Shown in pieces: positions 33,714 through 43,549 of a DNA stretch of 64,000 bases; the first letter of the stretch is position 1, and each line of letters opens with the position of its first letter. Source of the stretch: Dehalococcoidia bacterium (lineage in GTDB: Bacteria; Chloroflexota; Dehalococcoidia; Bin125); NCBI GenBank assembly GCA_965208665.1, contig CBDBPH010000001.1, positions 131,045 through 195,044 of the forward strand, in the 5' to 3' direction. The notes below the pieces were generated by a model. That model had not been told where the DNA came from. It did not search any database and saw only the letters and a program-made list of their open reading frames with translations. The position numbers were made by a program, and so were the translations under genes.

Positions 33714-34550
33714 GTGGGCGGAATTGGTAGGCTCACGCTCGTGACCAGTCCACCCAGTCCACCCAGTCCACGCGGCGATGGATGGCAGCCGGACCAGTAC
33801 GCCCGGTTCAAGGCGGAGCGGGAGCAGCCGTTCTACGACCTGCTGGACCTGGTAGAGCCGGTGCTCGCGGGGCGCGTGGTCGATCTGGGTTGCGGTACCG
33901 GCGCGCTGACTGTGGCGTTGCACACGAAGACGTTGGCGGACGAGACGGTCGGGCTGGACCGGTCGGAGGCGATGCTGGAGCAGAGCGCTGAGCACGCGGG
34001 TGGCGGTGTGCGGTTTGTGCGCGGCGACATTGCCGAGTTCAGCGGGTTGGATGGCGGCGGGCTGGATGTGGTGTTCGCCAACGCGTCGATCCAGTGGGTG
34101 CCGGACCATGCGTCGCTGTTTCCTCGGCTGGCCGCGACGCTGAGGCCGGGCGGGCAACTGGCGGTGCAGATGCCGGCCAACGAGGATCATCCGTCGCACG
34201 CGGTGGCTCGCGCGGTGGCGCAGGAGTCGCCGCACGCGGAGGCGCTGGGCGGGTTCGTGTATCGGCACTCGATCGAGTCGGCGGAGTGGTACGCGGAGCA
34301 GCTGGCGCGGCTCGGATTCGTCGAGCAGCACGTGCGCGTGCAGGTCTATCTGCACCGGTTGCCGGGGCCGGAGGACGTGATCGAGTGGGTCAAGGGGTCG
34401 CTGCTGACGGGCTATCGGAATCGGATGTCGGCGGAGGACTACGAGGCGTTCCTGGCGGACTATCGGGAGCGCCTGCTGTCGGTGTTGCCCGACGAGCGTC
34501 CGTTCCTCTACCCGTTCAAGCGGCTCCTGCTGTGGGGGCGGATGGGCTAG
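33714..34550 (+). CDS. tam: trans-aconitate 2-methyltransferase-like SAM methyltransferase
   Basis: WQPDQYARFKAEREQPFYDLL (Tam N-terminal signature), VVDLGCGTGALT motif I. True start may be the GTG at 33741 because the AlkZ-like gene starts at 33699 on the other strand. Confidence 0.65.
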   Translation: MGGIGRLTLVTSPPSPPSPRGDGWQPDQYARFKAEREQPFYDLLDLVEPVLAGRVVDLGCGTGALTVALHTKTLADETVGLDRSEAMLEQSAEHAGGGVRFVRGDIAEFSGLDGGGLDVVFANASIQWVPDHASLFPRLAATLRPGGQLAVQMPANEDHPSHAVARAVAQESPHAEALGGFVYRHSIESAEWYAEQLARLGFVEQHVRVQVYLHRLPGPEDVIEWVKGSLLTGYRNRMSAEDYEAFLADYRERLLSVLPDERPFLYPFKRLLLWGRMG

Positions 34551-34564
34551 GCGGTGGTCAGGGT

Positions 34565-34639
34565 GGTTGGGTTTGGTCGAGGCCCTCACCCTAGCCCTCT
34601 CCCTCGGGGAGAGGGGACTGGAGATGGTTGGGTTTGGTC
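34565..34639. repeat. REP-like palindromic element, copy D, flanked by a 14-bp direct repeat GGTTGGGTTTGGTC
   Basis: ggttgggtttggtc-gaggccctcaccctagccctctccctcggggagaggggactggagat-ggttgggtttggtc; immediately after the tam stop; left border of a lower-GC accessory segment. Confidence 0.8.
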
Positions 34640-34777
34640 AGGTTCGGTAGGCGTGTTATGTCGAGTGGGATTGCGAATTCCCTGTGTTTTGCTGGGTTTC
34701 GTGATCGGTGGTAGGTCGTCAGGTGAGAATTTTTCCTGGGCGCTGGGAAACGAAAAAACGGGTTCGGGTGCTCAGAC

Positions 34778-34807
34778 TTGTCCAGATCTGTCCAGATTCG
34801 TCCAGAT
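34778..34807. repeat. 10-nt x3 tandem repeat (TTGTCCAGAT/CTGTCCAGAT/TCGTCCAGAT) in a ~400-bp lower-GC non-coding stretch
   Basis: Read directly from the sequence; lies 3' of the MTase gene. Confidence 0.7.
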
Positions 34808-35014
34808 GCGGCTCGATTTTGCCAGTTTTGTTCCAGGTGAGTCCGCGCGAGTTCAGGAGCGTCCGGGTTGGCGGCTGGATGCTGACTGGCTGGATATTGG
34901 CGGGGCACGTGGGTTGCCTCCCGGCTGCGTGAGCGCATATGTTCTGATTGTATTCGATTTCGGCATCCTGTGGGGACGCGGGGCGAACCGGGCTTGTGGT
35001 CGGATTGACAGGGA

Positions 35015-36658
35015 CTACGCGTCGAGGGATTGCTGGACGCCTTGCTGGCGCCGCCGGCGTGGGGCTTTGCGGAAGGTCTGGGGGGCGGCGAAGCGGGGGT
35101 AGTCGGGCTGGTCGCCGTTGAGGAGCTGCTCGATGGTGAGGATCTGGACCTTGGGGTACCTCCGGGTCTCGAGTCCCGATGATTCGTAGAAGCCGGCGGC
35201 GATCGCTTCCTGGCGCATCGGCTTGGTCGGTTCTTCAAGGGTGATGAAGATGCCGATGGCGGCGTCCTCGCGCTCCATGTCGCCCTTGAGCGTGGCGACC
35301 ATGCCGCGGTTGACGTGACCGCTCTTGACCTGGACGATGATGCGCCTGGCCTTGCCGGAGTTGTCGTCGAAGAAGTTGATGTAGCCGTCAATGCCGGAGT
35401 CGGCGCCCTTCTTGCCGGTGGCGGGCCGGGCGTCGACGAGGCCGAGCGCCCAGTACTCGAACTGGTAGCGGCCGTCATGCTCGGACTCGGTGGCGAGCGC
35501 GCGGGCACTGGCGACATCCTCTGGGAGCCCGACGATCTGGTAGGCGGACAGTTCGGTGCCGAACGTGTCGTGCAGGCGGTGCTTCATCAATGAGATTGAC
35601 ACGTGAGTGAGATCAATGCCGATCCAGCGCCGCTTGAGCCGCTCGGCCACGGCGACGGCGGTGCCGCAGCCGCAGAAGGGATCGAGGACGATGTCGCCCT
35701 CGTTGCTGCTGGCATCGATGATGCGTTCGAGCAGAGCTTCAGGCTTCTGTGTCGGGTAGCCGAGGCGTTCCTTATGGGCACCAGAAAGCGACGGAATGTC
35801 GCTCCAGATGTCTTGAACTGGCACACCCTTCGAATCTTCCAAGTACAGCTTCTGTCGCGGGTATCCGGTCCTGGAATAGTAGAGCCGGCCTTCGTCATGA
35901 AGCCGCTGCATGGTTTCCTTGCTGTATCTCCATGCGCGAGTGTGACCATTCCAGTCGAAGACGGGATTGCCCTTCTCCGCGCCACCCGGACCAGTCAGAG
36001 GTGTGGTAGTAAAGCGCTTACCGGTCTCCTCATCGATGTGCCTGTAGGTCGATTTGACGTAGCTTTCATCCAGCGGGACAAAACCTTGGTTCCATATGAC
36101 CGAGTCACCCTTGTTATAGAGCAACAGAATGTCGTGGACTCGTCCAAAGTGCCTGGAGCCTTGCCCGACATCGTTATGAGCGCCGTAACGCCGCCAAGTG
36201 ACTTCGTTGGTGAACATGTCGTGTCCGAAGACCGCATCCATCACCAGCTTCAGATAGTGGCTCGCGGTCGGGTCGCAGTGGAGGTAGATGCTTCCGGTTG
36301 GTTTGAGGACGCGGTGGAGTTCGGCGAGGCGCTGGGCCATCATCGTGAGGTAGGCCATCATGTCGTTCTGGCCGAGGAACTCGCGCATCGCCTGGAGCAG
36401 CTTGCCCAGCTTGTCGGGGCCCTCGGTGACAACCTCCTGGTAGGCGCGCTCGGAGTCGAGGGTCCAGTGCCAGGTGTCGTCGAAGGCGGTGATCTGTGCC
36501 GCGGAGTCCTCGCCGGATCGCTCCTTGAAGAGGACGTTGTAGGTGGCGTTGGAGTTGAAGGGCGGGTCGAGGTAGATGAGGTCGACGGACTCGGAAGGGA
36601 TGTGTTCGCGGAGGACGGAGAGGTTGTCGCCGAAGTAGAGCTGGTTGGTCCAGGTCAT
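35015..36658 (-). CDS. DNA methyltransferase (N6-adenine/N4-cytosine, DPPF-type) fused to a C-terminal Mrr-like PD-(D/E)xK nuclease domain
   Basis: SVDLIYLDPPFNSN (motif IV DPPF), C-terminal SAM-binding motif VLDPFCGCGT. Then GADSGIDGYINFF...RRIIVQVKSG (Mrr_cat-type D...QxK). GGAGG RBS upstream of ATG at 36658. Confidence 0.75.
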   Translation of the reverse strand: MTWTNQLYFGDNLSVLREHIPSESVDLIYLDPPFNSNATYNVLFKERSGEDSAAQITAFDDTWHWTLDSERAYQEVVTEGPDKLGKLLQAMREFLGQNDMMAYLTMMAQRLAELHRVLKPTGSIYLHCDPTASHYLKLVMDAVFGHDMFTNEVTWRRYGAHNDVGQGSRHFGRVHDILLLYNKGDSVIWNQGFVPLDESYVKSTYRHIDEETGKRFTTTPLTGPGGAEKGNPVFDWNGHTRAWRYSKETMQRLHDEGRLYYSRTGYPRQKLYLEDSKGVPVQDIWSDIPSLSGAHKERLGYPTQKPEALLERIIDASSNEGDIVLDPFCGCGTAVAVAERLKRRWIGIDLTHVSISLMKHRLHDTFGTELSAYQIVGLPEDVASARALATESEHDGRYQFEYWALGLVDARPATGKKGADSGIDGYINFFDDNSGKARRIIVQVKSGHVNRGMVATLKGDMEREDAAIGIFITLEEPTKPMRQEAIAAGFYESSGLETRRYPKVQILTIEQLLNGDQPDYPRFAAPQTFRKAPRRRRQQGVQQSLDA

Positions 36659-36807
36659 TTGGGGCCTCCGGTGGTCAGGGTAAGGGCAGTCGGGCGTTAG
36701 CAGAGCCGGTCCCGGTTCAAGCGGTGAGTAGCACGTTCCGGGAGCCAAGCATCGACCATCCGTTCGTAGATAGTAGACTAGCGACAGAGACGAGGAGGCT
36801 GACAACG

Positions 36808-37665
36808 ATGCCTGGTGAACTCATTGCGGGTGCTGCCGCAGGCTTGACGAACCCGGCAACTGCGTTGATCGAAAGGGTGTCCGATGCAGTCGGCGGCATC
36901 GCGAGGCCTGCTCAGATTCGTCGTGTCGCTAGGGCTGAGGCCGATGCGAAGGTGATCATGGCCGAAGCGGACATCAAGATCACCGAGATCCAGCAGCGCG
37001 CAGCGCGCCGCTTCATTGAGGAGGAAACGAAGAACCAGATCAACATAGAGAACATTACCCATCAGGCGATACCTCACCTCAATGAAAATGCAGAGCCCGA
37101 GAAGATCGAAGACGACTTTCTCAGGAACTTCTTCGATAAGTCGCGGCTGGTGTCGGACGAACAGATGCAGGAGATCTGGGCCCGCATACTCGCCGGCGAG
37201 GCGAACAACCCGGGAACCTTCGCAAGGAAGACGATCAACATCGTGGCCGATATGGACAAGTCCGACGCCGACCGATTCGCTATCCTCCTCAGTTTTTCCT
37301 GGGTCGTCGGCGGCAACCCGGTGGCCATTGTCTACAACGACGACAGCTATTTCGATGAGAGGGGGATCGATCTAGAGATGTTGGCTGATCAGGAGTCGCT
37401 TGGTCTGATCTCGACGAATTCTCTTCCGTACGGGTTCTACCTCAGCGGGGTATCACTCCGTGCTGCTTACTTCGATAAGTCTGCTCAAATCACTCTGTCA
37501 AACAAAGACAAGAACTTTCTGAGCACGGGCAATGTGTTTCTTACTCCGGCTGGCCGACAGCTCGCATCAATGTGTCGCGTGAGACCGATCGAGGGTTTCT
37601 TTGACTTCATGTGCAGAAGGTGGGAAGAGGACTCGAGCGTAGAGTCGGTCAGGACACTCAACTGA
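36808..37665 (+). CDS. DUF2806-like protein (N-terminal coiled coil), noticeably lower GC than surroundings
   Basis: SDEQMQEIWARILAGEANNPGTFARKTINIVADMDKSDADRF resembles the conserved DUF2806 core; GAGGAGG RBS before ATG at 36808. Confidence 0.45.
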   Translation: MPGELIAGAAAGLTNPATALIERVSDAVGGIARPAQIRRVARAEADAKVIMAEADIKITEIQQRAARRFIEEETKNQINIENITHQAIPHLNENAEPEKIEDDFLRNFFDKSRLVSDEQMQEIWARILAGEANNPGTFARKTINIVADMDKSDADRFAILLSFSWVVGGNPVAIVYNDDSYFDERGIDLEMLADQESLGLISTNSLPYGFYLSGVSLRAAYFDKSAQITLSNKDKNFLSTGNVFLTPAGRQLASMCRVRPIEGFFDFMCRRWEEDSSVESVRTLN

Positions 37666-37685
37666 GTGGCTGAGTGAGGGGAGGG

Positions 37686-37727
37686 GGCCCGTCCCCGAGC
37701 GAGTCGGGGAACGGACGGGGGCTCTGC
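37686..37727 (+). terminator. putative terminator hairpin after DUF2806-like gene
   Basis: Imperfect GC-rich inverted repeat GGGGGCCCGTCCCCGA-GCGAGT-CGGGGAACGGACGGGGGC 20 nt after the stop. Confidence 0.3.
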
Positions 37728-37836
37728 TTGAGGCTTCGATGAGGGGGACGATGTCGTCGAAGTTGGTGGTGGCTCGAACGGTGTCGAGGTCGTAGAAGCG
37801 CTGTAGGGTAGTCGGCTGATGCTTTTGGAGCGCTGA

Positions 37837-38076
37837 GTGAAGACGACCGATCACTTCTGGAAGGCGCGCTTTCTGATGCCCGACCGCGGGCGCATCCAAC
37901 TGCATTGGATTCAGCGAGTAGTGGATCGGCCGCTCCGACGTGAAGTGCAGTCGGATGGCCGAATCCGATGCTGGGGGCGTGTACCGGAACTGGGTGGACG
38001 GGCGCTCAGAGTGGTAATCTTGGCCGACGGCGAGACGGTCCACACTGCGTTCGTCGACGGAAGATTCAGGCCATGA
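37837..38076 (+). CDS. DUF4258-family toxin (type II TA)
   Basis: MKTTDHFWKARFLMPDRGRI... matches the T-DH-x-x-AR-x-x-x-RGI opening of DUF4258; 79 aa; stop overlaps the start of the downstream DUF2283 gene. Confidence 0.55.
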   Translation: MKTTDHFWKARFLMPDRGRIQLHWIQRVVDRPLRREVQSDGRIRCWGRVPELGGRALRVVILADGETVHTAFVDGRFRP

Positions 38077-38270
38077 AGCGGTTCTACTCCAAAGACACCG
38101 ACACGCTCATGTTCGTCTTTTCCGACGAGCGCGTTACTGATTATGTTGATCTGGACTTCCAAACGCTGCTCGAACTGGACTGCGACGGCAATCCCGTTGC
38201 CCTGACCATCGAGCACGCCCGCGAACGCAAGGTGCTGCCAGAGGTCGATTCTGAACGGATTCCCGCCTGA
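38073..38270 (+). CDS. DUF2283-family antitoxin
   Basis: MKRFYSKDTDTLMFVFSDERVTDYVDLDFQTLLELDCDGNPVALTIEHARE is the classic DUF2283 pattern; ATGA overlap with the toxin. Confidence 0.6.
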   Translation: MKRFYSKDTDTLMFVFSDERVTDYVDLDFQTLLELDCDGNPVALTIEHARERKVLPEVDSERIPA

Positions 38271-38720
38271 TTGCGGAGACGATCGATGTTGCGAGCGGTG
38301 GCGGAGCCGGCGGCGATTGAGCGCCTGGCGAGCCAGATCAAGGAGTCGCCGATGGATGAGGTGCGAATGCCGGCGCAAGTCGCCAATCCCGATGCGCCCG
38401 ACCGCTACTGGGAGGCGGATTTCCTGCTCGACAGCGGCGCGAGCGTTTCGGTCGTGCCGGTCGACGTCCTCGAGCGGCTCGGCGTTAGTCCGCGTCGCCT
38501 GGGCCGCTCCTATCTCGCCGATGAGTCGTCGATCGTGCGGCGCGTGGGACTGGCGACGTTTACCGTCGCGGGCGAGACGGAAGACGCGAGCGTCATGTTT
38601 GGCGAGGAGGGCACGGAACCGATCCTCGGCCTGACGGTGCTGCAATCGATGGGGTTTCTCGTTGATCCGCTGCGTGAGCGTCTGCTGCCTCGTTCGGCGC
38701 TCGCGGAGGCGTTGGATTAG
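38271..38720 (+). CDS. retropepsin-like (clan AA) aspartic protease
   Basis: FLLDSGASVSVV carries the D-S-G-A catalytic motif; ~145 aa single-domain bacterial retropepsin-like protein. Confidence 0.55.
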   Translation: MRRRSMLRAVAEPAAIERLASQIKESPMDEVRMPAQVANPDAPDRYWEADFLLDSGASVSVVPVDVLERLGVSPRRLGRSYLADESSIVRRVGLATFTVAGETEDASVMFGEEGTEPILGLTVLQSMGFLVDPLRERLLPRSALAEALD

Positions 38721-38744
38721 GGATCTTCCCGGGACTGGGGTGCT

Positions 38745-39110
38745 GTGGAGGCCCTCACCCCAGCCCTCTCCCTCGGGGAGAGGGGGTCAGAAGGGGCGGG
38801 ATTCCGTAGCGGGGTCGGGAATGAGGGTGAGAGGTGGGTACTGTGGGCGGGTGCCCCCCTCTGTCTCTACGAGACATCTCCCCCCGCTGGCGCGGGGGGA
38901 GAGAAGAAGGGGCGGGTCTCCGGGTTCGAGCGCGGTGGGAGAGGGGAAGGGGCTGGTCCCCGCTCGGGGGTGGGGAACGGGAGGATTCTGCCGTGGGAGG
39001 GGCCCTCACCCCCCGCCTTCGCGGGGGCAGGCTCTAACCCTCTCCCTCGGGGAGAGGGGATTCGCGAGCGGGTCGGGGAGCTGGGAGGGCTCGTGTATCC
39101 TGAGGCGGAT
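38745..39110. repeat. complex array: two full REP-like units (38749-38788, 39000-39062) plus degenerate ~40-45-nt tandem GGGG-rich sub-repeats and additional CCCCGC-N-GCGGGG hairpins
   Basis: Repeated gaaggggc(g/t)gg...cgggg...gggga blocks; the shadow ORF 38745..39116 translates to repetitive GERG/GEGAG peptides. Confidence 0.75.
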
Positions 39111-39127
39111 GGGTGAATGGAGTTGGG

Positions 39128-40395: not shown

Positions 40396-42621
40396 CTAGG
40401 AATCGCAGACATTCGGCGGGATCATAATCTCCAAGTCCGAGATGTTCTGATGCTTCATCTTTAGCGGGATCGCATCTCCTGGGTCGGTAGAAAAGCCATT
40501 CTCTCCAAAGTAGACGTAGCAGAACGGTGTAGAAACCATCAGGATGTGTTCTCCTGGACGGTCGACGGATAGCGCAAAGGAACCGTCGGCTTGAACCTTT
40601 GGATTTGAAGTGAACCACGAGTAGTAGATTCCAACGAACGATTCGCTAGCAGGTTCGCCGCGCTCATCGAGCACTCTTCCGCTAATCTGACCGGCGCAGG
40701 CGCCGACGGGAAGCCGCAGTTCCAACTCTCGGCCGGCCAGGTACTGGGCCTCGAAGAGTGTGTCGGCTGAGACCTCGCTCGCGAGTCCTGTGCCGTCGAA
40801 CGCATAGATGCAATCCTCGAACCTGACTCGCAAGCGGTACTTGTCCGCCTCGGGAAGTCTCAGACTGAACGTCCCATCGGAGCGAGTCCATTGGTATGTC
40901 GTACCTTCATCTCTTCTGGCCGATACAGACAGCGCGCTGACCGGAGCGCCCTGCGCATTCACTACTCTCCCAGTGATCCGGTGGTGGCAGAGATCCACGG
41001 GCAGTTGGACCGATATGCTCAAATCTTCATTGCCGACCGCGATTGTCTCAGCCGATCGCTGCTTCAGCATGAGTCCGGACTGGGCGTAGTAGACATTGCA
41101 ACCCTCAACCGTGACCAGTAACAGGTAGCCACCCGGCTCAACAAACGCGCTGACCGTGCCGTCCTGCCAGGTACGGGTCCGAATCGCAGTTTGCTCACTC
41201 GAGCGTGGATTCAGGGTCAATCTCACGTCGGCCAGGGATTCTCCATCCGAGCCAAGCATCGTCATGCTGACCAAGCTTTTTCGAGTCGCGCCCTGGCTCC
41301 TCGCCTCTGCGCGATGGCATGTGGCACTGAGGTCGGCCACGCCCAGGGTTTCGGCCACCAGGTGAGCTAATGACGGCACGAACTGCGACAGCTCGATTCG
41401 GTTGCTGATGCCGGAGTAGCTCTGGCCACGTAGGCCGAACCAGTAGAGGACGCCCTCGGCCCAGTACTCGGCTGAGTTGGTCATCGCGTATGTTCCCTCC
41501 AGCCACCCGGCCTCTCGAGCCTGCCGGTAAGACTGAACGAGGGCGCTGCGGAAGCTGCCTGAGCTGGATCCTCGGCTAATGGCGAAATCGATTGCGTGGG
41601 CGAACTCGTGAACGGCGACGTCATAGCCGTTGTAGCGATCGCCCTCGTAACAGAGGAGGTTTTCCTCGGGGACCAGCGTCGGGGTGTAGCCGTTCGGACC
41701 AAGACCTCGAGGTCCTCCTGGACCATGTCCCTCTAGTTCAATTCGATCTCGATACTGCCGATAAGGAGCCAGATCAAAGGTCTGTTCGGACTCGCCGACG
41801 ACGACGATGTGTTCGCGTCTCCTGATCAGCGTCTCGCGGACATCGGGACGGTTGACGAGTAGTTCGTCGACGATAGCGGCGGCGCGGAAGAGCGCCTCGT
41901 CGGCGACGTTTTCCGTGGCCATGATCGCCAGTCCGTCGGCGTCTAGGTACTTATCGAATGTGGCGTACCAGCGCAGATGGTCTGGCGGCGGTCCGAGCGG
42001 ATAGAGCGCGCGATCGCCGCTCGGTTGCAACCAGCTCGCTTCGGTCGTGTTGAAGACCCAGAGGCCGTCGCCGCGGCGCAGCTGGTGTTGGGGTCCGGGG
42101 GCTGGACGGGAGCCAGCCTGATAGAGCGCGAGTTCGCCACTATCGGGAGTGGAGTAGAGGGCCTGCGTGAATGACGCGCCGATGGACCGGACTGCCAGGT
42201 CGATCGGCGTGCCGCTCGGGCCAGTCCAGGCGACGAGGTTTGGCCCCGGCTTGAGCGCGACCCACTCGCCGTCGGCGACCGTCGGTTGATGCCACTCGAC
42301 CGGCTGCTCGCCGGCGATGCGGACGATCAGGCCCATTCCGGGCTCGATCGCGCTGAGGGTCGCAGAAAATCCGGGGGTGGAGAAGCGGTAACGGGCGTCG
42401 TCGGCGTCCCAGGTGTAGATAAGTTCCGCGTTCGGGATCTGGTCGAACAGCGCTTGCGGCGTGGTTGCGAAGCCGACCCAGCCGATCAGATTGTCCCCGG
42501 GGTGAAGCGTTCTGCTTGCCGGCGGAGACTCTTCACCAGCGACGAGTATCTGGGTCAGCAGCAGGGTGGCGAGCAGCGCGGAGAGGATAGTCGCGAGGCG
42601 TACGAGCCGACGCTGGCGCAT
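40396..42621 (-). CDS. secreted zinc metalloprotease with MtfA(M90)/ATLF-like gluzincin domain and three carboxypeptidase-regulatory-like beta-sandwich repeats
   Basis: Signal peptide MRQRRLVRLATILSALLATLLL; HEFAHAIDF (HExxH) with downstream NSAEYWAEG (third zinc ligand Glu as in MtfA/anthrax-LF-like fold). C-terminal repeats ITGRVVNAQGAPV / ISGRVLDERGEPA. ATG at 42621. Confidence 0.6.
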   Translation of the reverse strand: MRQRRLVRLATILSALLATLLLTQILVAGEESPPASRTLHPGDNLIGWVGFATTPQALFDQIPNAELIYTWDADDARYRFSTPGFSATLSAIEPGMGLIVRIAGEQPVEWHQPTVADGEWVALKPGPNLVAWTGPSGTPIDLAVRSIGASFTQALYSTPDSGELALYQAGSRPAPGPQHQLRRGDGLWVFNTTEASWLQPSGDRALYPLGPPPDHLRWYATFDKYLDADGLAIMATENVADEALFRAAAIVDELLVNRPDVRETLIRRREHIVVVGESEQTFDLAPYRQYRDRIELEGHGPGGPRGLGPNGYTPTLVPEENLLCYEGDRYNGYDVAVHEFAHAIDFAISRGSSSGSFRSALVQSYRQAREAGWLEGTYAMTNSAEYWAEGVLYWFGLRGQSYSGISNRIELSQFVPSLAHLVAETLGVADLSATCHRAEARSQGATRKSLVSMTMLGSDGESLADVRLTLNPRSSEQTAIRTRTWQDGTVSAFVEPGGYLLLVTVEGCNVYYAQSGLMLKQRSAETIAVGNEDLSISVQLPVDLCHHRITGRVVNAQGAPVSALSVSARRDEGTTYQWTRSDGTFSLRLPEADKYRLRVRFEDCIYAFDGTGLASEVSADTLFEAQYLAGRELELRLPVGACAGQISGRVLDERGEPASESFVGIYYSWFTSNPKVQADGSFALSVDRPGEHILMVSTPFCYVYFGENGFSTDPGDAIPLKMKHQNISDLEIMIPPNVCDS

Positions 42622-42664
42622 TATCGGGGCTCCAGAGTTCGTCCTGGCGTCCACTGGTCGTGCG

Positions 42665-43549
42665 TCACGACGGCTTTGGCAAACAGACGATTCCCCACGA
42701 GGCGGACTCGCCGGCGGTGATCGACAGTGTCGGGGTGATCCCAATTCCGTGCTCGCCGGTCAGCTCATACTCGACTTCGCCGGACCAGGTCGCCGCTGAG
42801 ACATCGACGAGGGTCAGTTCGCGGAGCGCAACCTTGAACTGCGTCTCGCCGCCGTCATCGGCGAAGTTGCCGGTCACGTCGATTCGACAGGTGTATACGT
42901 CGGGAATCGCGGAAATCATCGCGGTTCCAGAACCCCGACCGGAGGAAGAGGAGAGGTTGCCCCGAGGCTCATCGTTCAATGTCACGGTGAGCTGGATCGT
43001 GCTGCGAGAGCCTCGGTCAGCACGACCGAGTTCGGCGCGGCGGTCGCACTTGAGCGACCACTCGCTCGCCGGCGCCGCTTGCAACCTGACGTCGACCAGG
43101 CTGGTTGCCGTCTGCGCACTGCCGGCCAAGAGCAGGTCGAAGTTCGTCGTCCAGTCCGATTGCGTCGTGTCGACGAGCGCCGGATTCAGCGGCTCACGGC
43201 TGACGAAGTGGATCCGAAACGGAGCCGCCTGTTCACCCTGCACGTTGCCTTGCAGATCGATGCTGCATCGGTACAGGCCGGCCGCAAGCTCATGCTCGAC
43301 CTGGGCATCACCGGAGCCGCTCATCTGGAACGACTCGGGGGCGGTGACGGCGGGAGCGTCTCTCTGGGCGTCCGTGGTGAGGTTGGCCAACTCGGACTGC
43401 TGTTGTACTTCAGCGATGGGTGCACTACGGCGTTCGACCGACGGTTCGGGTTGCGTCAGCGGTTCCGAGCGTTCCCGGGGCGTGGCACAGGCGACCAGCG
43501 TGGCGGCGGAGAGCGCGAAGATGGCGAGCGCGATCTTTGTGAGCTTCAC
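42665..43549 (-). CDS. lipoprotein with internal tandem duplication, unknown function
   Basis: Lipobox LVAC; two related modules (GLYRCSIDLQGNVQGE... and DVYTCRIDVTGNFADDGGE...); 43 nt upstream of the metalloprotease gene on the same strand. Confidence 0.5.
   Translation of the reverse strand: MKLTKIALAIFALSAATLVACATPRERSEPLTQPEPSVERRSAPIAEVQQQSELANLTTDAQRDAPAVTAPESFQMSGSGDAQVEHELAAGLYRCSIDLQGNVQGEQAAPFRIHFVSREPLNPALVDTTQSDWTTNFDLLLAGSAQTATSLVDVRLQAAPASEWSLKCDRRAELGRADRGSRSTIQLTVTLNDEPRGNLSSSSGRGSGTAMISAIPDVYTCRIDVTGNFADDGGETQFKVALRELTLVDVSAATWSGEVEYELTGEHGIGITPTLSITAGESASWGIVCLPKPS

What the first reader, a model, noticed from the sequence alone, without database searches (positions are those of the whole stretch)
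38271..38720. Stand-alone retropepsin-like aspartic protease directly downstream of the TA pair
FLLDSGASVSVV contains the retroviral-type D-S-G-A active-site motif in a 145-aa single-domain protein that starts 1 nt after the antitoxin stop. Bacterial clan-AA proteases are rare and functionally uncharacterised. Here one is in an accessory island, possibly acting on the neighbouring proteins or as an effector.
Basis: partly seen in the sequence, partly recalled or inferred. Interest (0 to 1): 0.5.

Follow-up and report, generated by a model that had tools for sequence, protein, structure and literature searches.

The report
Stand-alone bacterial retropepsin-like protease gene
This is a real, intact gene for a small HIV-protease-like (retropepsin-fold) aspartic protease from a large, already annotated but functionally unstudied bacterial family, and it is an independent cassette in a toxin-antitoxin/defence hotspot rather than a fixed partner of the gene pair next to it.

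Summary

- The family is not rare: 2,924 clusters at 50% identity match its profile, and public records already call close relatives 'clan AA aspartic protease'.
- The upstream 'toxin' matches no Pfam model, DUF4258 included. Only DUF2283 is supported.
- Linkage to the pair is not conserved. Related Dehalococcoidia genomes carry the protease at the same nuoB-adjacent hotspot without the pair, or the pair without the protease. Homology to the other ten loci compared starts about 10-30 nt before the ATG; in nine it ends at the stop codon.

The gene is best read as an autonomous cytosolic, homodimeric aspartic protease cassette living in toxin-antitoxin/defence islands. It belongs to a small clade with a conserved 22-residue N-terminal helix. 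Relatives sit next to Panacea antitoxin-like genes or inside DISARM-like operons, which is a lead towards a conflict-related role but not proof. It is a new member of a known kind, of modest interest.

The parts
38286..38720 (+). Coding sequence of the 144-aa retropepsin-like aspartic protease, stop codon included
38275..38278 (+). GGAG ribosome-binding site, 7 nt before the ATG at 38286
   Evidence: Read directly from the sequence. A GGAGAG block is conserved upstream of the ATG in most aligned orthologous loci.
38286..38351 (+). Clade-specific 22-residue N-terminal extension (MLRAVAEPAAIERLASQIKESP), predicted helix at residues 8-17
   Evidence: It is conserved at the protein level across homologues of 47-88% identity. 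Only about 5-6 of the listed 50%-identity clusters carry it, and most family members start at profile position 23. The helix comes from the AF2 model. Its synonymous divergence (pS 0.00-0.25 against close orthologues, whole-gene dS 0.28-0.84) is unusually low.
38340..38354 (+). Internal AAGGAG followed 6 nt later by ATG (Met23), a possible secondary start giving the canonical ~122-aa core
   Evidence: Read directly from the sequence. AAGGAG is conserved, but Met23 is Ile in L089 and Val in L013, so this is not the universal start.
38430..38441 (+). Catalytic motif D49-S50-G51-A52
   Evidence: D49 and G51 are invariant in 24 homologues; the motif is D-[ST]-G-[AS]. It aligns to the active-site loop of plasmepsin V.
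38622..38630 (+). Hydrophobic-hydrophobic-Gly motif I113-L114-G115, followed by a short helix (residues 116-121)
   Evidence: G115 is nearly invariant. The motif aligns to PILGLT of plasmepsin V. The helix is in the AF2 model.
38073..38270 (+). Upstream neighbour, a 65-aa DUF2283 protein; context only, not an obligate partner
   Evidence: PF10049 scores 29 bits against a cut-off of 23. It is found upstream of the protease in some loci, downstream in L002 and L006, and is absent in many.
37837..38076 (+). 79-aa ORF overlapping the DUF2283 start by 4 nt, the presumed toxin; family unassigned
   Evidence: No Pfam, NCBIfam or PDB sequence match. It has 23 homologues, none with a Pfam domain. It is always followed by a DUF2283-like gene in L089, L090, L092 and L094.
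37684..37807 (-). Truncated 3' remnant of a higA antitoxin gene
   Evidence: It aligns with the 3' ends of intact higA genes in L002 and L008 and with similar remnants in L009, L088 and L011. I recognised the HigA C-terminus in the translation myself; no HMM was run on the fragment.
38738..38785 (+). REP-like hairpin repeat just after the protease stop; a 90%-identical copy lies at 34569-34616 at the other edge of the variable region
   Evidence: Direct-repeat family D1. The core CCCTCTCCCTCGGGGAGAGGG occurs at 5 sites in the window against 0 expected.

Best explanation
The gene encodes an autonomous, cytosolic, single-domain retropepsin-like aspartic endopeptidase.

**How it works.** As in all single-domain clan-AA enzymes, two subunits must pair so that D49 of each forms the catalytic dyad. 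The I-L-G motif and the terminal strands build the dimer interface. This step is inferred from the fold.

**Where it belongs.** It is part of a small Dehalococcoidia/Chloroflexota clade of the large PF13650 / TIGR03698-like family. The clade is distinguished by a conserved 22-residue N-terminal helix placed ahead of the canonical N-terminus. I propose this helix acts as a regulatory segment or pro-segment that modulates dimerisation or is removed by autoprocessing. That is inference.

**How it behaves genetically.** It is a single-gene cassette that sits in toxin-antitoxin and defence hotspots. In this window it happens to abut a DUF2283-containing pair and is probably read through from that pair's transcript. 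It is not a fixed third component of the pair.

**Substrate.** Unknown. The most likely role is a conflict- or stress-related proteolytic function carried by the island, not processing of the two neighbouring proteins.
For: **Identity**
- PF13650 and PF13975 score above their cut-offs.
- D49 and G51 are invariant and G115 nearly so.
- The AF2 model has pLDDT 84.
- Foldseek places it with SFV and HIV-1 proteases, BACE1 and APRc at probability 1.0.
- There is no hydrophobic segment (maximum Kyte-Doolittle 1.26) and the pI is 4.5.
- dN/dS is 0.13-0.37.

**Autonomy**
- blastn homology to 10 other loci begins at 38257-38276. In 9 of them it ends at 38720-38743, whatever the flanks; in the closest relative, L085, it runs on through the repeat-rich spacer to 38918.
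- The protease occurs without the pair in L085, L086, L008, L007, L009 and L088.
- The pair occurs without the protease in L090 and L092. A HigBA module lies between them in L089.
- About 120 neighbouring ORFs on each side of 80+ family loci hit 101 and 129 different Pfam families, with no common partner.
- GC3 is host-like for the protease (0.81) but 0.68-0.71 for the pair.

**Island residence**
- Neighbours in the close clade are HigBA, AF2212/PIN, BrnT, ApeA-HEPN, an MTase-Mrr fusion, a Panacea protein, and a DrmD-like helicase with a DUF1156 methylase.
- Tandem copies occur in L015 (three), L029, L033 and L045.
Against: - No biochemical evidence exists for activity, dimerisation or processing.
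- The monomer model says nothing about how the N-terminal helix sits in a dimer.
- Adjacency to DUF2283 recurs, upstream in 5 loci and downstream in 2, in several genomic contexts. A looser functional tie therefore cannot be excluded.
- In five related genomes the gene sits constantly next to nuoB and has host-like composition. That fits a resident housekeeping gene equally well.
- No match was found in the phage or plasmid collections, PHROGs or PADLOC, so there is no direct link to mobile elements or to known defence systems.
Confidence: 0.6

Rival explanations
1. Third component of the neighbouring module. The protease is co-transcribed with the 79-aa protein and DUF2283 and acts on them, for example by degrading the DUF2283 antitoxin-like protein to release the toxin.
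For: - The gap is 15 nt on the same strand, with no terminator-like site between the genes.
- The contiguous trio is seen in the window, L006, L001, L011 and L094, in at least three genomic contexts.
- The window's DUF2283 ORF ends inside the conserved protease leader.
Against: - The trio is present in only about 5 of 20 close-clade loci.
- Spacing varies from 15 to about 230 nt, with a repeat insertion in L006.
- L089 has an opposite-strand HigBA module between the pair and the protease.
- L085, L086 and L008 keep the protease without the pair. L090 and L092 keep the pair without it.
- Composition differs between the protease and the pair.
- Kurata et al. found that third 'accessory' genes, proteases among them, occur with only a small fraction of TA pairs and probably play no general role (PMC8832971).
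Confidence: 0.12
2. The protease is itself a toxin or abortive-infection effector. It is neutralised by an adjacent antitoxin-like protein (Panacea in some genomes, DUF2283 in others) or by its own N-terminal segment in solo copies.
For: - L018-L020 carry a two-gene insertion, a Panacea-domain protein (32.6 bits, cut-off 25.7) followed by the protease, next to a truncated CoA-transferase fragment.
- Panacea pairs with dozens of unrelated toxins (PMC8832971).
- In L002 and L006 a DUF2283 gene directly follows the protease with no other candidate toxin.
- The N-terminal extension is specific to the island-associated clade.
Against: - Many copies have no adjacent small partner (L085, L088, L009, L007).
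- Broad-family members sit in housekeeping contexts such as dnaA-rpmH-rnpA.
- The Panacea pairing is seen in only one group of three related genomes.
- No paper found in the searched library links retropepsin-like proteins to TA or defence.
Confidence: 0.12
3. Accessory component of a DISARM-like / DUF1156 restriction-type defence system that here survives as an orphan.
For: - In L003, L012, L013 and L016 the protease starts 21 nt after a DrmD-like SNF2 helicase (355 bits to NF038317) and precedes a DUF1156 methylase; L017, where only the methylase side could be read, looks the same.
- Helicases only about 30% identical lie next to family members in two Acidimicrobiia genomes (L023, L029) in two other arrangements.
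Against: - The window has no DrmD-like helicase or DUF1156 gene.
- In L014 and L015 the protease persists while the system is truncated.
- A DUF559 endonuclease gene is inserted at the same spot, which suggests an intergenic landing site for small selfish genes.
- Helicase and methylase scores are below NCBIfam cut-offs.
Confidence: 0.08
4. Resident housekeeping or regulatory protease of the host that merely borders an insertion hotspot.
For: - It lies directly upstream of nuoB in five related genomes (window, L085, L086, L008, L089).
- It has host-like GC and GC3.
- Members in candidate-phyla-radiation bacteria lie between dnaA and rpmH/rnpA.
- It is under purifying selection.
Against: - It is absent from the same hotspot in L092.
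- It is found in quite different contexts in L001, L002, L007, L009 and L094, and copy number varies from one to three.
- Disrupted copies occur in L019 and L095.
Confidence: 0.08

Closest known systems
Pfam PF13650 Asp_protease_2 / NCBIfam TIGR03698 (clan AA aspartic protease) small stand-alone prokaryotic proteins (the old COG5550/COG3577 'pSNCAPs', PMC2642776)
   Same: Single retropepsin-like domain of about 120 aa, a D-[ST]-G-[AS] motif, an I-L-G motif, no signal peptide, and usually a lone gene. The profile alignment covers TIGR03698 positions 5-105 of 107.
   Different: It scores 42.4 bits, below the TIGR03698 cut-off of 57.35. It carries an extra conserved 22-residue N-terminal helix found in only a handful of clusters. 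Its clade is concentrated in TA/defence islands.
APRc (RC1339) of Rickettsia conorii, PDB 5c9b/5c9f
   Different: APRc is membrane-embedded with a large N-terminal transmembrane region, and sequence identity is only about 15-17%. The window protein is soluble and cytosolic by sequence.
RimB of Pseudomonas (RimABK system)
   Same: A cytoplasmic retropepsin-like aspartic endopeptidase with a single catalytic Asp per chain, acting with partner proteins encoded next to it (PMC11957791).
Retroviral proteases (HIV-1, EIAV, HTLV, SFV) and the Ddi1 retroviral-protease-like domain
   Different: There is no polyprotein or retroelement context and no ubiquitin-like domains. Sequence identity is 15-22%.
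Accessory third genes of type II TA loci (Kurata et al. 2022)
   Same: A protease-type gene lies beside a two-gene TA-like module in a minority of the genomes that carry the module (PMC8832971).
   Different: That study concerns Panacea-containing loci. Here the module is an unassigned 79-aa protein plus DUF2283, and the protease also occurs entirely alone.

Membership tests
Clan AA retropepsin-like proteases (Pfam PF13650 Asp_protease_2 / PF13975) | HMM score above the curated gathering threshold | tested here: met
   PF13650 scores 35.6 bits against 24.3, and PF13975 scores 31.5 against 28.2.
Clan AA retropepsin-like proteases | Catalytic hydrophobic-hydrophobic-Asp-Thr/Ser-Gly-Ala/Ser loop | tested here: met
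   L47-L48-D49-S50-G51-A52. D49 and G51 are invariant in 24 homologues.
Clan AA retropepsin-like proteases | Second signature: hydrophobic-hydrophobic-Gly (ILG) followed by a helix | tested here: met
   I113-L114-G115, with G115 nearly invariant. It aligns to PILGLT of plasmepsin V. Helix 116-121 is in the model.
Clan AA retropepsin-like proteases | Retropepsin (half-pepsin) beta-barrel fold | tested here: met
Clan AA retropepsin-like proteases | Homodimer forming a two-Asp active site; proteolytic activity | not testable with these tools
   Only a monomer model could be made. The C-terminal 20 residues have low pLDDT, as expected for a strand that needs a partner.
NCBIfam TIGR03698 clan_AA_DTGF | Score above the curated cut-off | tested here: not met
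   42.4 bits against a cut-off of 57.35, although the alignment spans model positions 5-105 of 107. It is a relative, not a member by NCBI's rule.
NCBIfam TIGR02281 clan_AA_DTGA | Score above the curated cut-off | tested here: not met
   16.4 bits against a cut-off of 57.95.
Three-gene DUF4258/DUF2283/protease toxin-antitoxin module | Upstream ORF is a DUF4258 (BrnT-like) toxin | tested here: not met
   No Pfam hit for the window ORF (E<=0.1) or for two orthologues at E<=1. No PDB sequence hit with a 4-sequence profile. None of 23 homologues has a Pfam domain. The fold was not tested.
Three-gene DUF4258/DUF2283/protease toxin-antitoxin module | Second ORF is DUF2283 | tested here: met
   PF10049 scores 29 bits against a cut-off of 23.
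Three-gene DUF4258/DUF2283/protease toxin-antitoxin module | Conserved linkage of the protease with the pair across genomes | tested here: not met
   The trio is contiguous in about 5 of 20 close-clade loci. The protease occurs alone in L085, L086, L008, L007, L009 and L088, and the pair alone in L090 and L092. They are separated by HigBA in L089.
Three-gene DUF4258/DUF2283/protease toxin-antitoxin module | Toxicity and neutralisation | not testable with these tools
   This needs expression assays.
PanAT (Panacea antitoxin plus toxin) pairs | Adjacent Panacea (PF13274) gene | tested here: not met
   The window has no Panacea homologue. One is present only next to relatives in L018-L020.
DISARM-like / DUF1156 defence operon | Adjacent DrmD-like SNF2 helicase and DUF1156 methylase | tested here: not met
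   tblastn of the L013 helicase and methylase finds nothing in the window. They are present next to relatives in L003, L012, L013, L016, L023 and L029.

The most novel reading that the evidence does not exclude
The N-terminally extended retropepsin-like proteins of Dehalococcoidia could be a new kind of single-gene conflict module. It would be a latent aspartic protease held inactive by its own 22-residue pro-segment, or in some genomes by a Panacea or DUF2283 partner. Phage infection or stress would activate it to cleave host or phage proteins. It would be exchanged as a gene-sized cassette among TA/defence hotspots and recruited into DISARM-like operons.
Probability: 0.12. Interest if true: 0.7.

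Novelty: new member of a known kind. Interest (0 to 1): 0.3.

Why it matters
Small stand-alone retropepsin-like proteins turn out to be numerous in metagenomes (thousands of clusters), yet none of this type has a known substrate. The literature still treats bacterial clan-AA enzymes as rarities.

This case adds a defined sub-clade with three features: an extra N-terminal helix, gene-sized cassette behaviour in a hotspot next to nuoB, and recurrent neighbours drawn from toxin-antitoxin and restriction-like defence systems.

If those associations are functional, they would point to the first aspartic-protease effector in prokaryotic conflict systems. If not, the gene is simply one more annotated 'aspartyl protease family protein'.

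Tried and rejected
1. **TTG start at 38271.** Rejected: it is not conserved, while ATG 38286 with GGAG is.
2. **Shared segment 37684-37807 as a common promoter.** I first thought it might drive both the trio and the solo proteases. The alignment showed it is the 3' end of a minus-strand higA gene, intact in L002 and L008 and truncated here.
3. **Integron-type cassette.** Homology to nine of the ten compared loci ends at the stop codon, and no conserved attC-like element follows. The flanking direct repeats are a genome-wide REP-like hairpin with 5 copies in the window.
4. **Sequence-only PDB searches.** They gave nothing useful: a single sequence reached E=1.7 to an unrelated protein, and the profile gave only active-site fragments of plasmepsins. 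The fold search was needed.
5. **PADLOC.** Only insignificant hits to candidates PDC-M52B and PDC-M08B (E 0.035 and 0.06).
6. **PHROGs.** No hits.
7. **tblastn against phage and plasmid collections.** No match.
8. **Metagenome-contig scan.** One short locus only.
9. **Look-up of the exact window protein.** It is not on record in the contig index.
10. **Literature searches.** Searches for retropepsin or aspartyl protease together with antitoxin or defence terms found no paper linking them.
11. **Antisense ORF 37911-38645(-).** Dismissed as a high-GC artefact, because the plus-strand frame shows purifying selection.

Full report
**1. The observation**

The ORF list shows 38271..38720 (+), 149 aa from a TTG. 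The sequence reads FLLDSGASVSVV, with D-S-G-A at 38430-38441.

The protein matches Pfam Asp_protease_2 (PF13650, 35.6 bits, cut-off 24.3) and gag-asp_proteas (PF13975, 31.5 bits, cut-off 28.2). It aligns over nearly the whole of NCBIfam TIGR03698 'clan AA aspartic protease' (positions 5-105 of 107). Its 42.4 bits fall below the 57.35 cut-off.

A database search returned 29 homologues, mostly exactly 144 aa long. In the alignment D49, G51, W42 and P58 are invariant and G115 is nearly so.

An alignment of the 5' ends of 14 orthologous loci settles the start codon. The ATG at 38286 and a preceding GGAG(AG) are conserved everywhere. The TTG at 38271 is TAG, TCG or CTG elsewhere. The protein is therefore 144 aa and begins 15 nt after the DUF2283 stop.

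Nei-Gojobori dN/dS against 13 orthologues is 0.13-0.37. The plus-strand gene is real, and the long antisense ORF 37911-38645 is an artefact of high GC content.

**2. Fold and catalytic features**

- AlphaFold2 on the 24-sequence alignment gave pLDDT 84 and pTM 0.81. The model is a beta-rich core with a short helix after the I-L-G motif, an N-terminal helix (residues 8-17) and a poorly defined C-terminal tail.
- Foldseek against the PDB returned the simian foamy virus protease, HIV-1 protease, BACE1 and Rickettsia APRc, all at probability 1.0.
- A profile search of PDB sequences aligned both the LVDtGat loop and the ePlLGlt motif to the corresponding loops of plasmepsin V, at non-significant E-values.

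The protein has no hydrophobic stretch (maximum Kyte-Doolittle 1.26 over 19 residues), a pI of 4.5 and a mass of 15.6 kDa. It is predicted to be soluble and cytosolic. Dimerisation and activity are inferred from the fold and could not be tested.

**3. Size of the family**

A full HMMER scan of 1.84 billion cluster representatives found 2,924 proteins at E<=1e-3 and 738 at E<=1e-10. Most of the 150 best-scoring proteins listed are 116-130 aa and begin at profile position 23. Only about five or six of those listed align from position 1, so they alone carry the 22-residue N-terminal extension.

Public records already name close relatives 'clan AA aspartic protease' and 'aspartyl protease family protein [Chloroflexota bacterium]'.

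The literature still calls such enzymes rare in prokaryotes (PMC11957791). Only a few are characterised:
- APRc (PMC4140852)
- RimB (PMC11957791)
- the secreted Rlo enzymes of P. aeruginosa (PMC11957051)

The small COG5550/COG3577 proteins were catalogued in 2009 as prokaryotic single-domain clan-AA peptidases about which 'little is known' (PMC2642776).

**4. The neighbours in the window**

- 38073-38270 is a DUF2283 protein (29 bits, cut-off 23).
- 37837-38076 overlaps it by 4 nt. It has no Pfam, NCBIfam or PDB sequence match, and two orthologues have none at E<=1. None of its 23 homologues carries a Pfam domain. The DUF4258 label is unconfirmed, although the pair arrangement is conserved.
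- Further upstream lie a DUF2806 protein and a minus-strand N6/N4 methylase fused to an Mrr-type nuclease domain.
- 37684-37807 is a truncated higA 3' end.
- No terminator-like or promoter-like site lies between the pair and the protease. In this genome the protease is probably transcribed with the pair.

**5. Is the linkage conserved?**

*Loci found from the protease (88 loci)*
- Same chromosomal site, between a SAM-methyltransferase gene and nuoB/nuoI:
  - L085 (88% identical protease) has the methylase-Mrr gene and a 280-aa gene but no pair.
  - L086 has Uma2, ApeA-HEPN and BrnT.
  - L008 has an opposite-strand HigBA.
- Solo copies: L088, L009 and L010 have a lone protease between a solute-binding-protein gene and a hydrolase gene.
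- L007 has it between a kinase-like ORF (read by eye, no HMM) and an MFS-type transporter.
- The contiguous trio occurs in the window, L006, L001 and L011.
- L002 and L006 have a DUF2283 gene directly downstream of the protease.

*Loci found from the 79-aa ORF*
- L089: pair, then HigBA on the other strand, then protease, then nuoB.
- L090: the pair follows a Type ISP restriction gene, with no protease.
- L092: same hotspot, the pair plus two other small genes, and no protease at all.
- L094: contiguous trio in yet another context.

*Other lines of evidence*
- blastn of the window against ten of these loci shows homology starting at 38257-38276. In nine it ends at 38720-38743, just past the stop codon, whatever the flanks; in L085 it continues to 38918.
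- GC3 is 0.81 for the protease, close to nuoB at 0.85. It is 0.68 and 0.71 for the pair and 0.69 for DUF2806.
- A Pfam census of about 120 flanking ORFs on each side across the wider family found 101 and 129 different families and no common partner. Members in candidate-phyla-radiation bacteria lie between dnaA and rpmH/rnpA.

The protease and the pair are separate cassettes that often share the same island.

**6. What the contexts do suggest**

Within the N-extended clade the neighbours are overwhelmingly toxin-antitoxin or restriction-type genes. They include HigBA, AF2212-like/PIN, BrnT, ApeA-HEPN and the methylase-Mrr fusion. Two patterns stand out.

*Pattern (i): Panacea.* In L018-L020 a Panacea-domain protein (PF13274, 32.6 bits) and the protease form a two-gene insertion beside a truncated CoA-transferase fragment. 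Panacea is a promiscuous antitoxin domain (PMC8832971).

*Pattern (ii): DISARM-like operons.*
- In L003, L012, L013 and L016 the protease starts 21 nt after a DrmD-like SNF2 helicase (355 bits to the DISARM DrmD model, below cut-off) and precedes a DUF1156 'anti-phage-associated' methylase. L017 shows the same methylase side.
- Helicases only about 30% identical neighbour family members in two Acidimicrobiia genomes, in two other arrangements.
- In L014 and L015 the system is truncated while the protease persists, as three tandem copies in L015.
- The window itself has no helicase, DUF1156, Panacea or second protease copy.

These associations are leads, not proof. PADLOC, PHROGs and the phage and plasmid collections gave nothing significant. 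No paper found in the searched library links retropepsin-like proteins with TA or defence systems.

**7. Mechanism**

*Shown*
- An intact clan-AA catalytic loop and I-L-G motif.
- A retropepsin fold.
- A cytosolic character by sequence.
- Purifying selection.
- Cassette-like distribution.

*Inferred*
- The protein acts as a homodimer with one Asp from each chain.
- The clade-specific N-terminal helix sits ahead of the residue that is the N-terminus in most of the family. It would be well placed to interfere with the terminal-strand dimer interface or to be removed by autoprocessing, as happens in retroviral proteases and APRc.
- The extension is translated: pN is lower than pS against distant orthologues.
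- Its low synonymous divergence and the conserved internal AAGGAG-N6-ATG (38340-38354) hint at an extra nucleotide-level constraint or a secondary start. Met23 is not universal, however.

The substrate is unknown. I rank an autonomous island-borne protease with a conflict- or stress-related role first. I give lower weight to a dedicated TA accessory, a toxin, a DISARM-like accessory and a plain housekeeping protease.

**8. Verdict**

The gene is real and correctly identified as a retropepsin-like protease. The proposed functional tie to its neighbours is not supported. It is a new member of a known, already annotated family with a modestly interesting sub-clade signature. Interest: 0.3.

Noticed in passing
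window 37684-37807 (-): Truncated 3' end of a higA (HTH/XRE antitoxin) gene with no higB. The same fragment or intact HigBA modules flank the protease in L002, L008, L009, L011, L088 and L089, which shows TA cassettes decaying in this hotspot.
   Followed up: partly
window 34569-34616, 38738-38785, 39012-39059; also 4305 and 23563: A REP-like GC-rich hairpin repeat (core CCCTCTCCCTCGGGGAGAGGG) occurs 5 times in 64 kb against 0 expected. Two 90%-identical 48-nt copies bracket the 4.1-kb variable region. It translates into the recurrent 'PSPLPRGEG' peptides seen in spurious ORFs, and related copies lie between cassettes in L001, L002, L006, L011 and L085.
   Followed up: partly
window 33714-39113, compared with L085, L086, L008, L089 and L092: The interval between a SAM-methyltransferase gene and nuoB is a variable hotspot in related Dehalococcoidia genomes. 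Its content differs in every genome: methylase-Mrr, DUF2806, HigBA, BrnT, ApeA-HEPN, Uma2, the 79-aa/DUF2283 pair, the protease.
   Followed up: partly
window 35015-36805 (-): An N6/N4 DNA methylase is fused to a C-terminal Mrr_cat / NA-iREase1 nuclease-like domain. Homologues recur within a few kb of the protease in L002, L007, L011, L085, L089 and L092. It may be a single-polypeptide restriction-modification enzyme or an inactive-nuclease fusion.
   Followed up: no
About 20-35 nt upstream of the protease ATG in L086, L008, L089, L011 and L009 (alignment A6); degenerate in the window at about 38251-38268: A small palindrome or hairpin (GGCG-TGGA-CGCC) sits in the conserved protease leader. 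L009 has GGCA-TGGA-TGCC, a change on both sides that keeps the pairing. It could be an operator or an RNA stem. In the window it is largely replaced by the DUF2283 3' end.
   Followed up: no
window 38286-38351: The first 66 nt of the protease gene have much lower synonymous divergence (pS 0.00-0.25) than the whole gene (dS 0.28-0.84) against close orthologues. This suggests a nucleotide-level constraint such as a translation-initiation structure or the internal AAGGAG/ATG.
   Followed up: partly
L015 4998-6670; also L029, L033 and L045: Tandem duplications or triplications of the protease gene. In L015 three copies follow a helicase reduced to a 111-aa C-terminal fragment.
   Followed up: partly
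L001 5447-5869: A 140-aa protein with two tandem DUF2283 domains, where the window has a single 65-aa DUF2283.
   Followed up: no
window 40396-42744 (-): A 782-aa ORF with an N-terminal hydrophobic segment that looks like a signal peptide (by eye), an HEFAH zinc-protease-like motif and C-terminal repeats. L085's counterpart gets a faint CarboxypepD_reg hit. It lies next to nuoI and its upstream part varies between related genomes.
   Followed up: no
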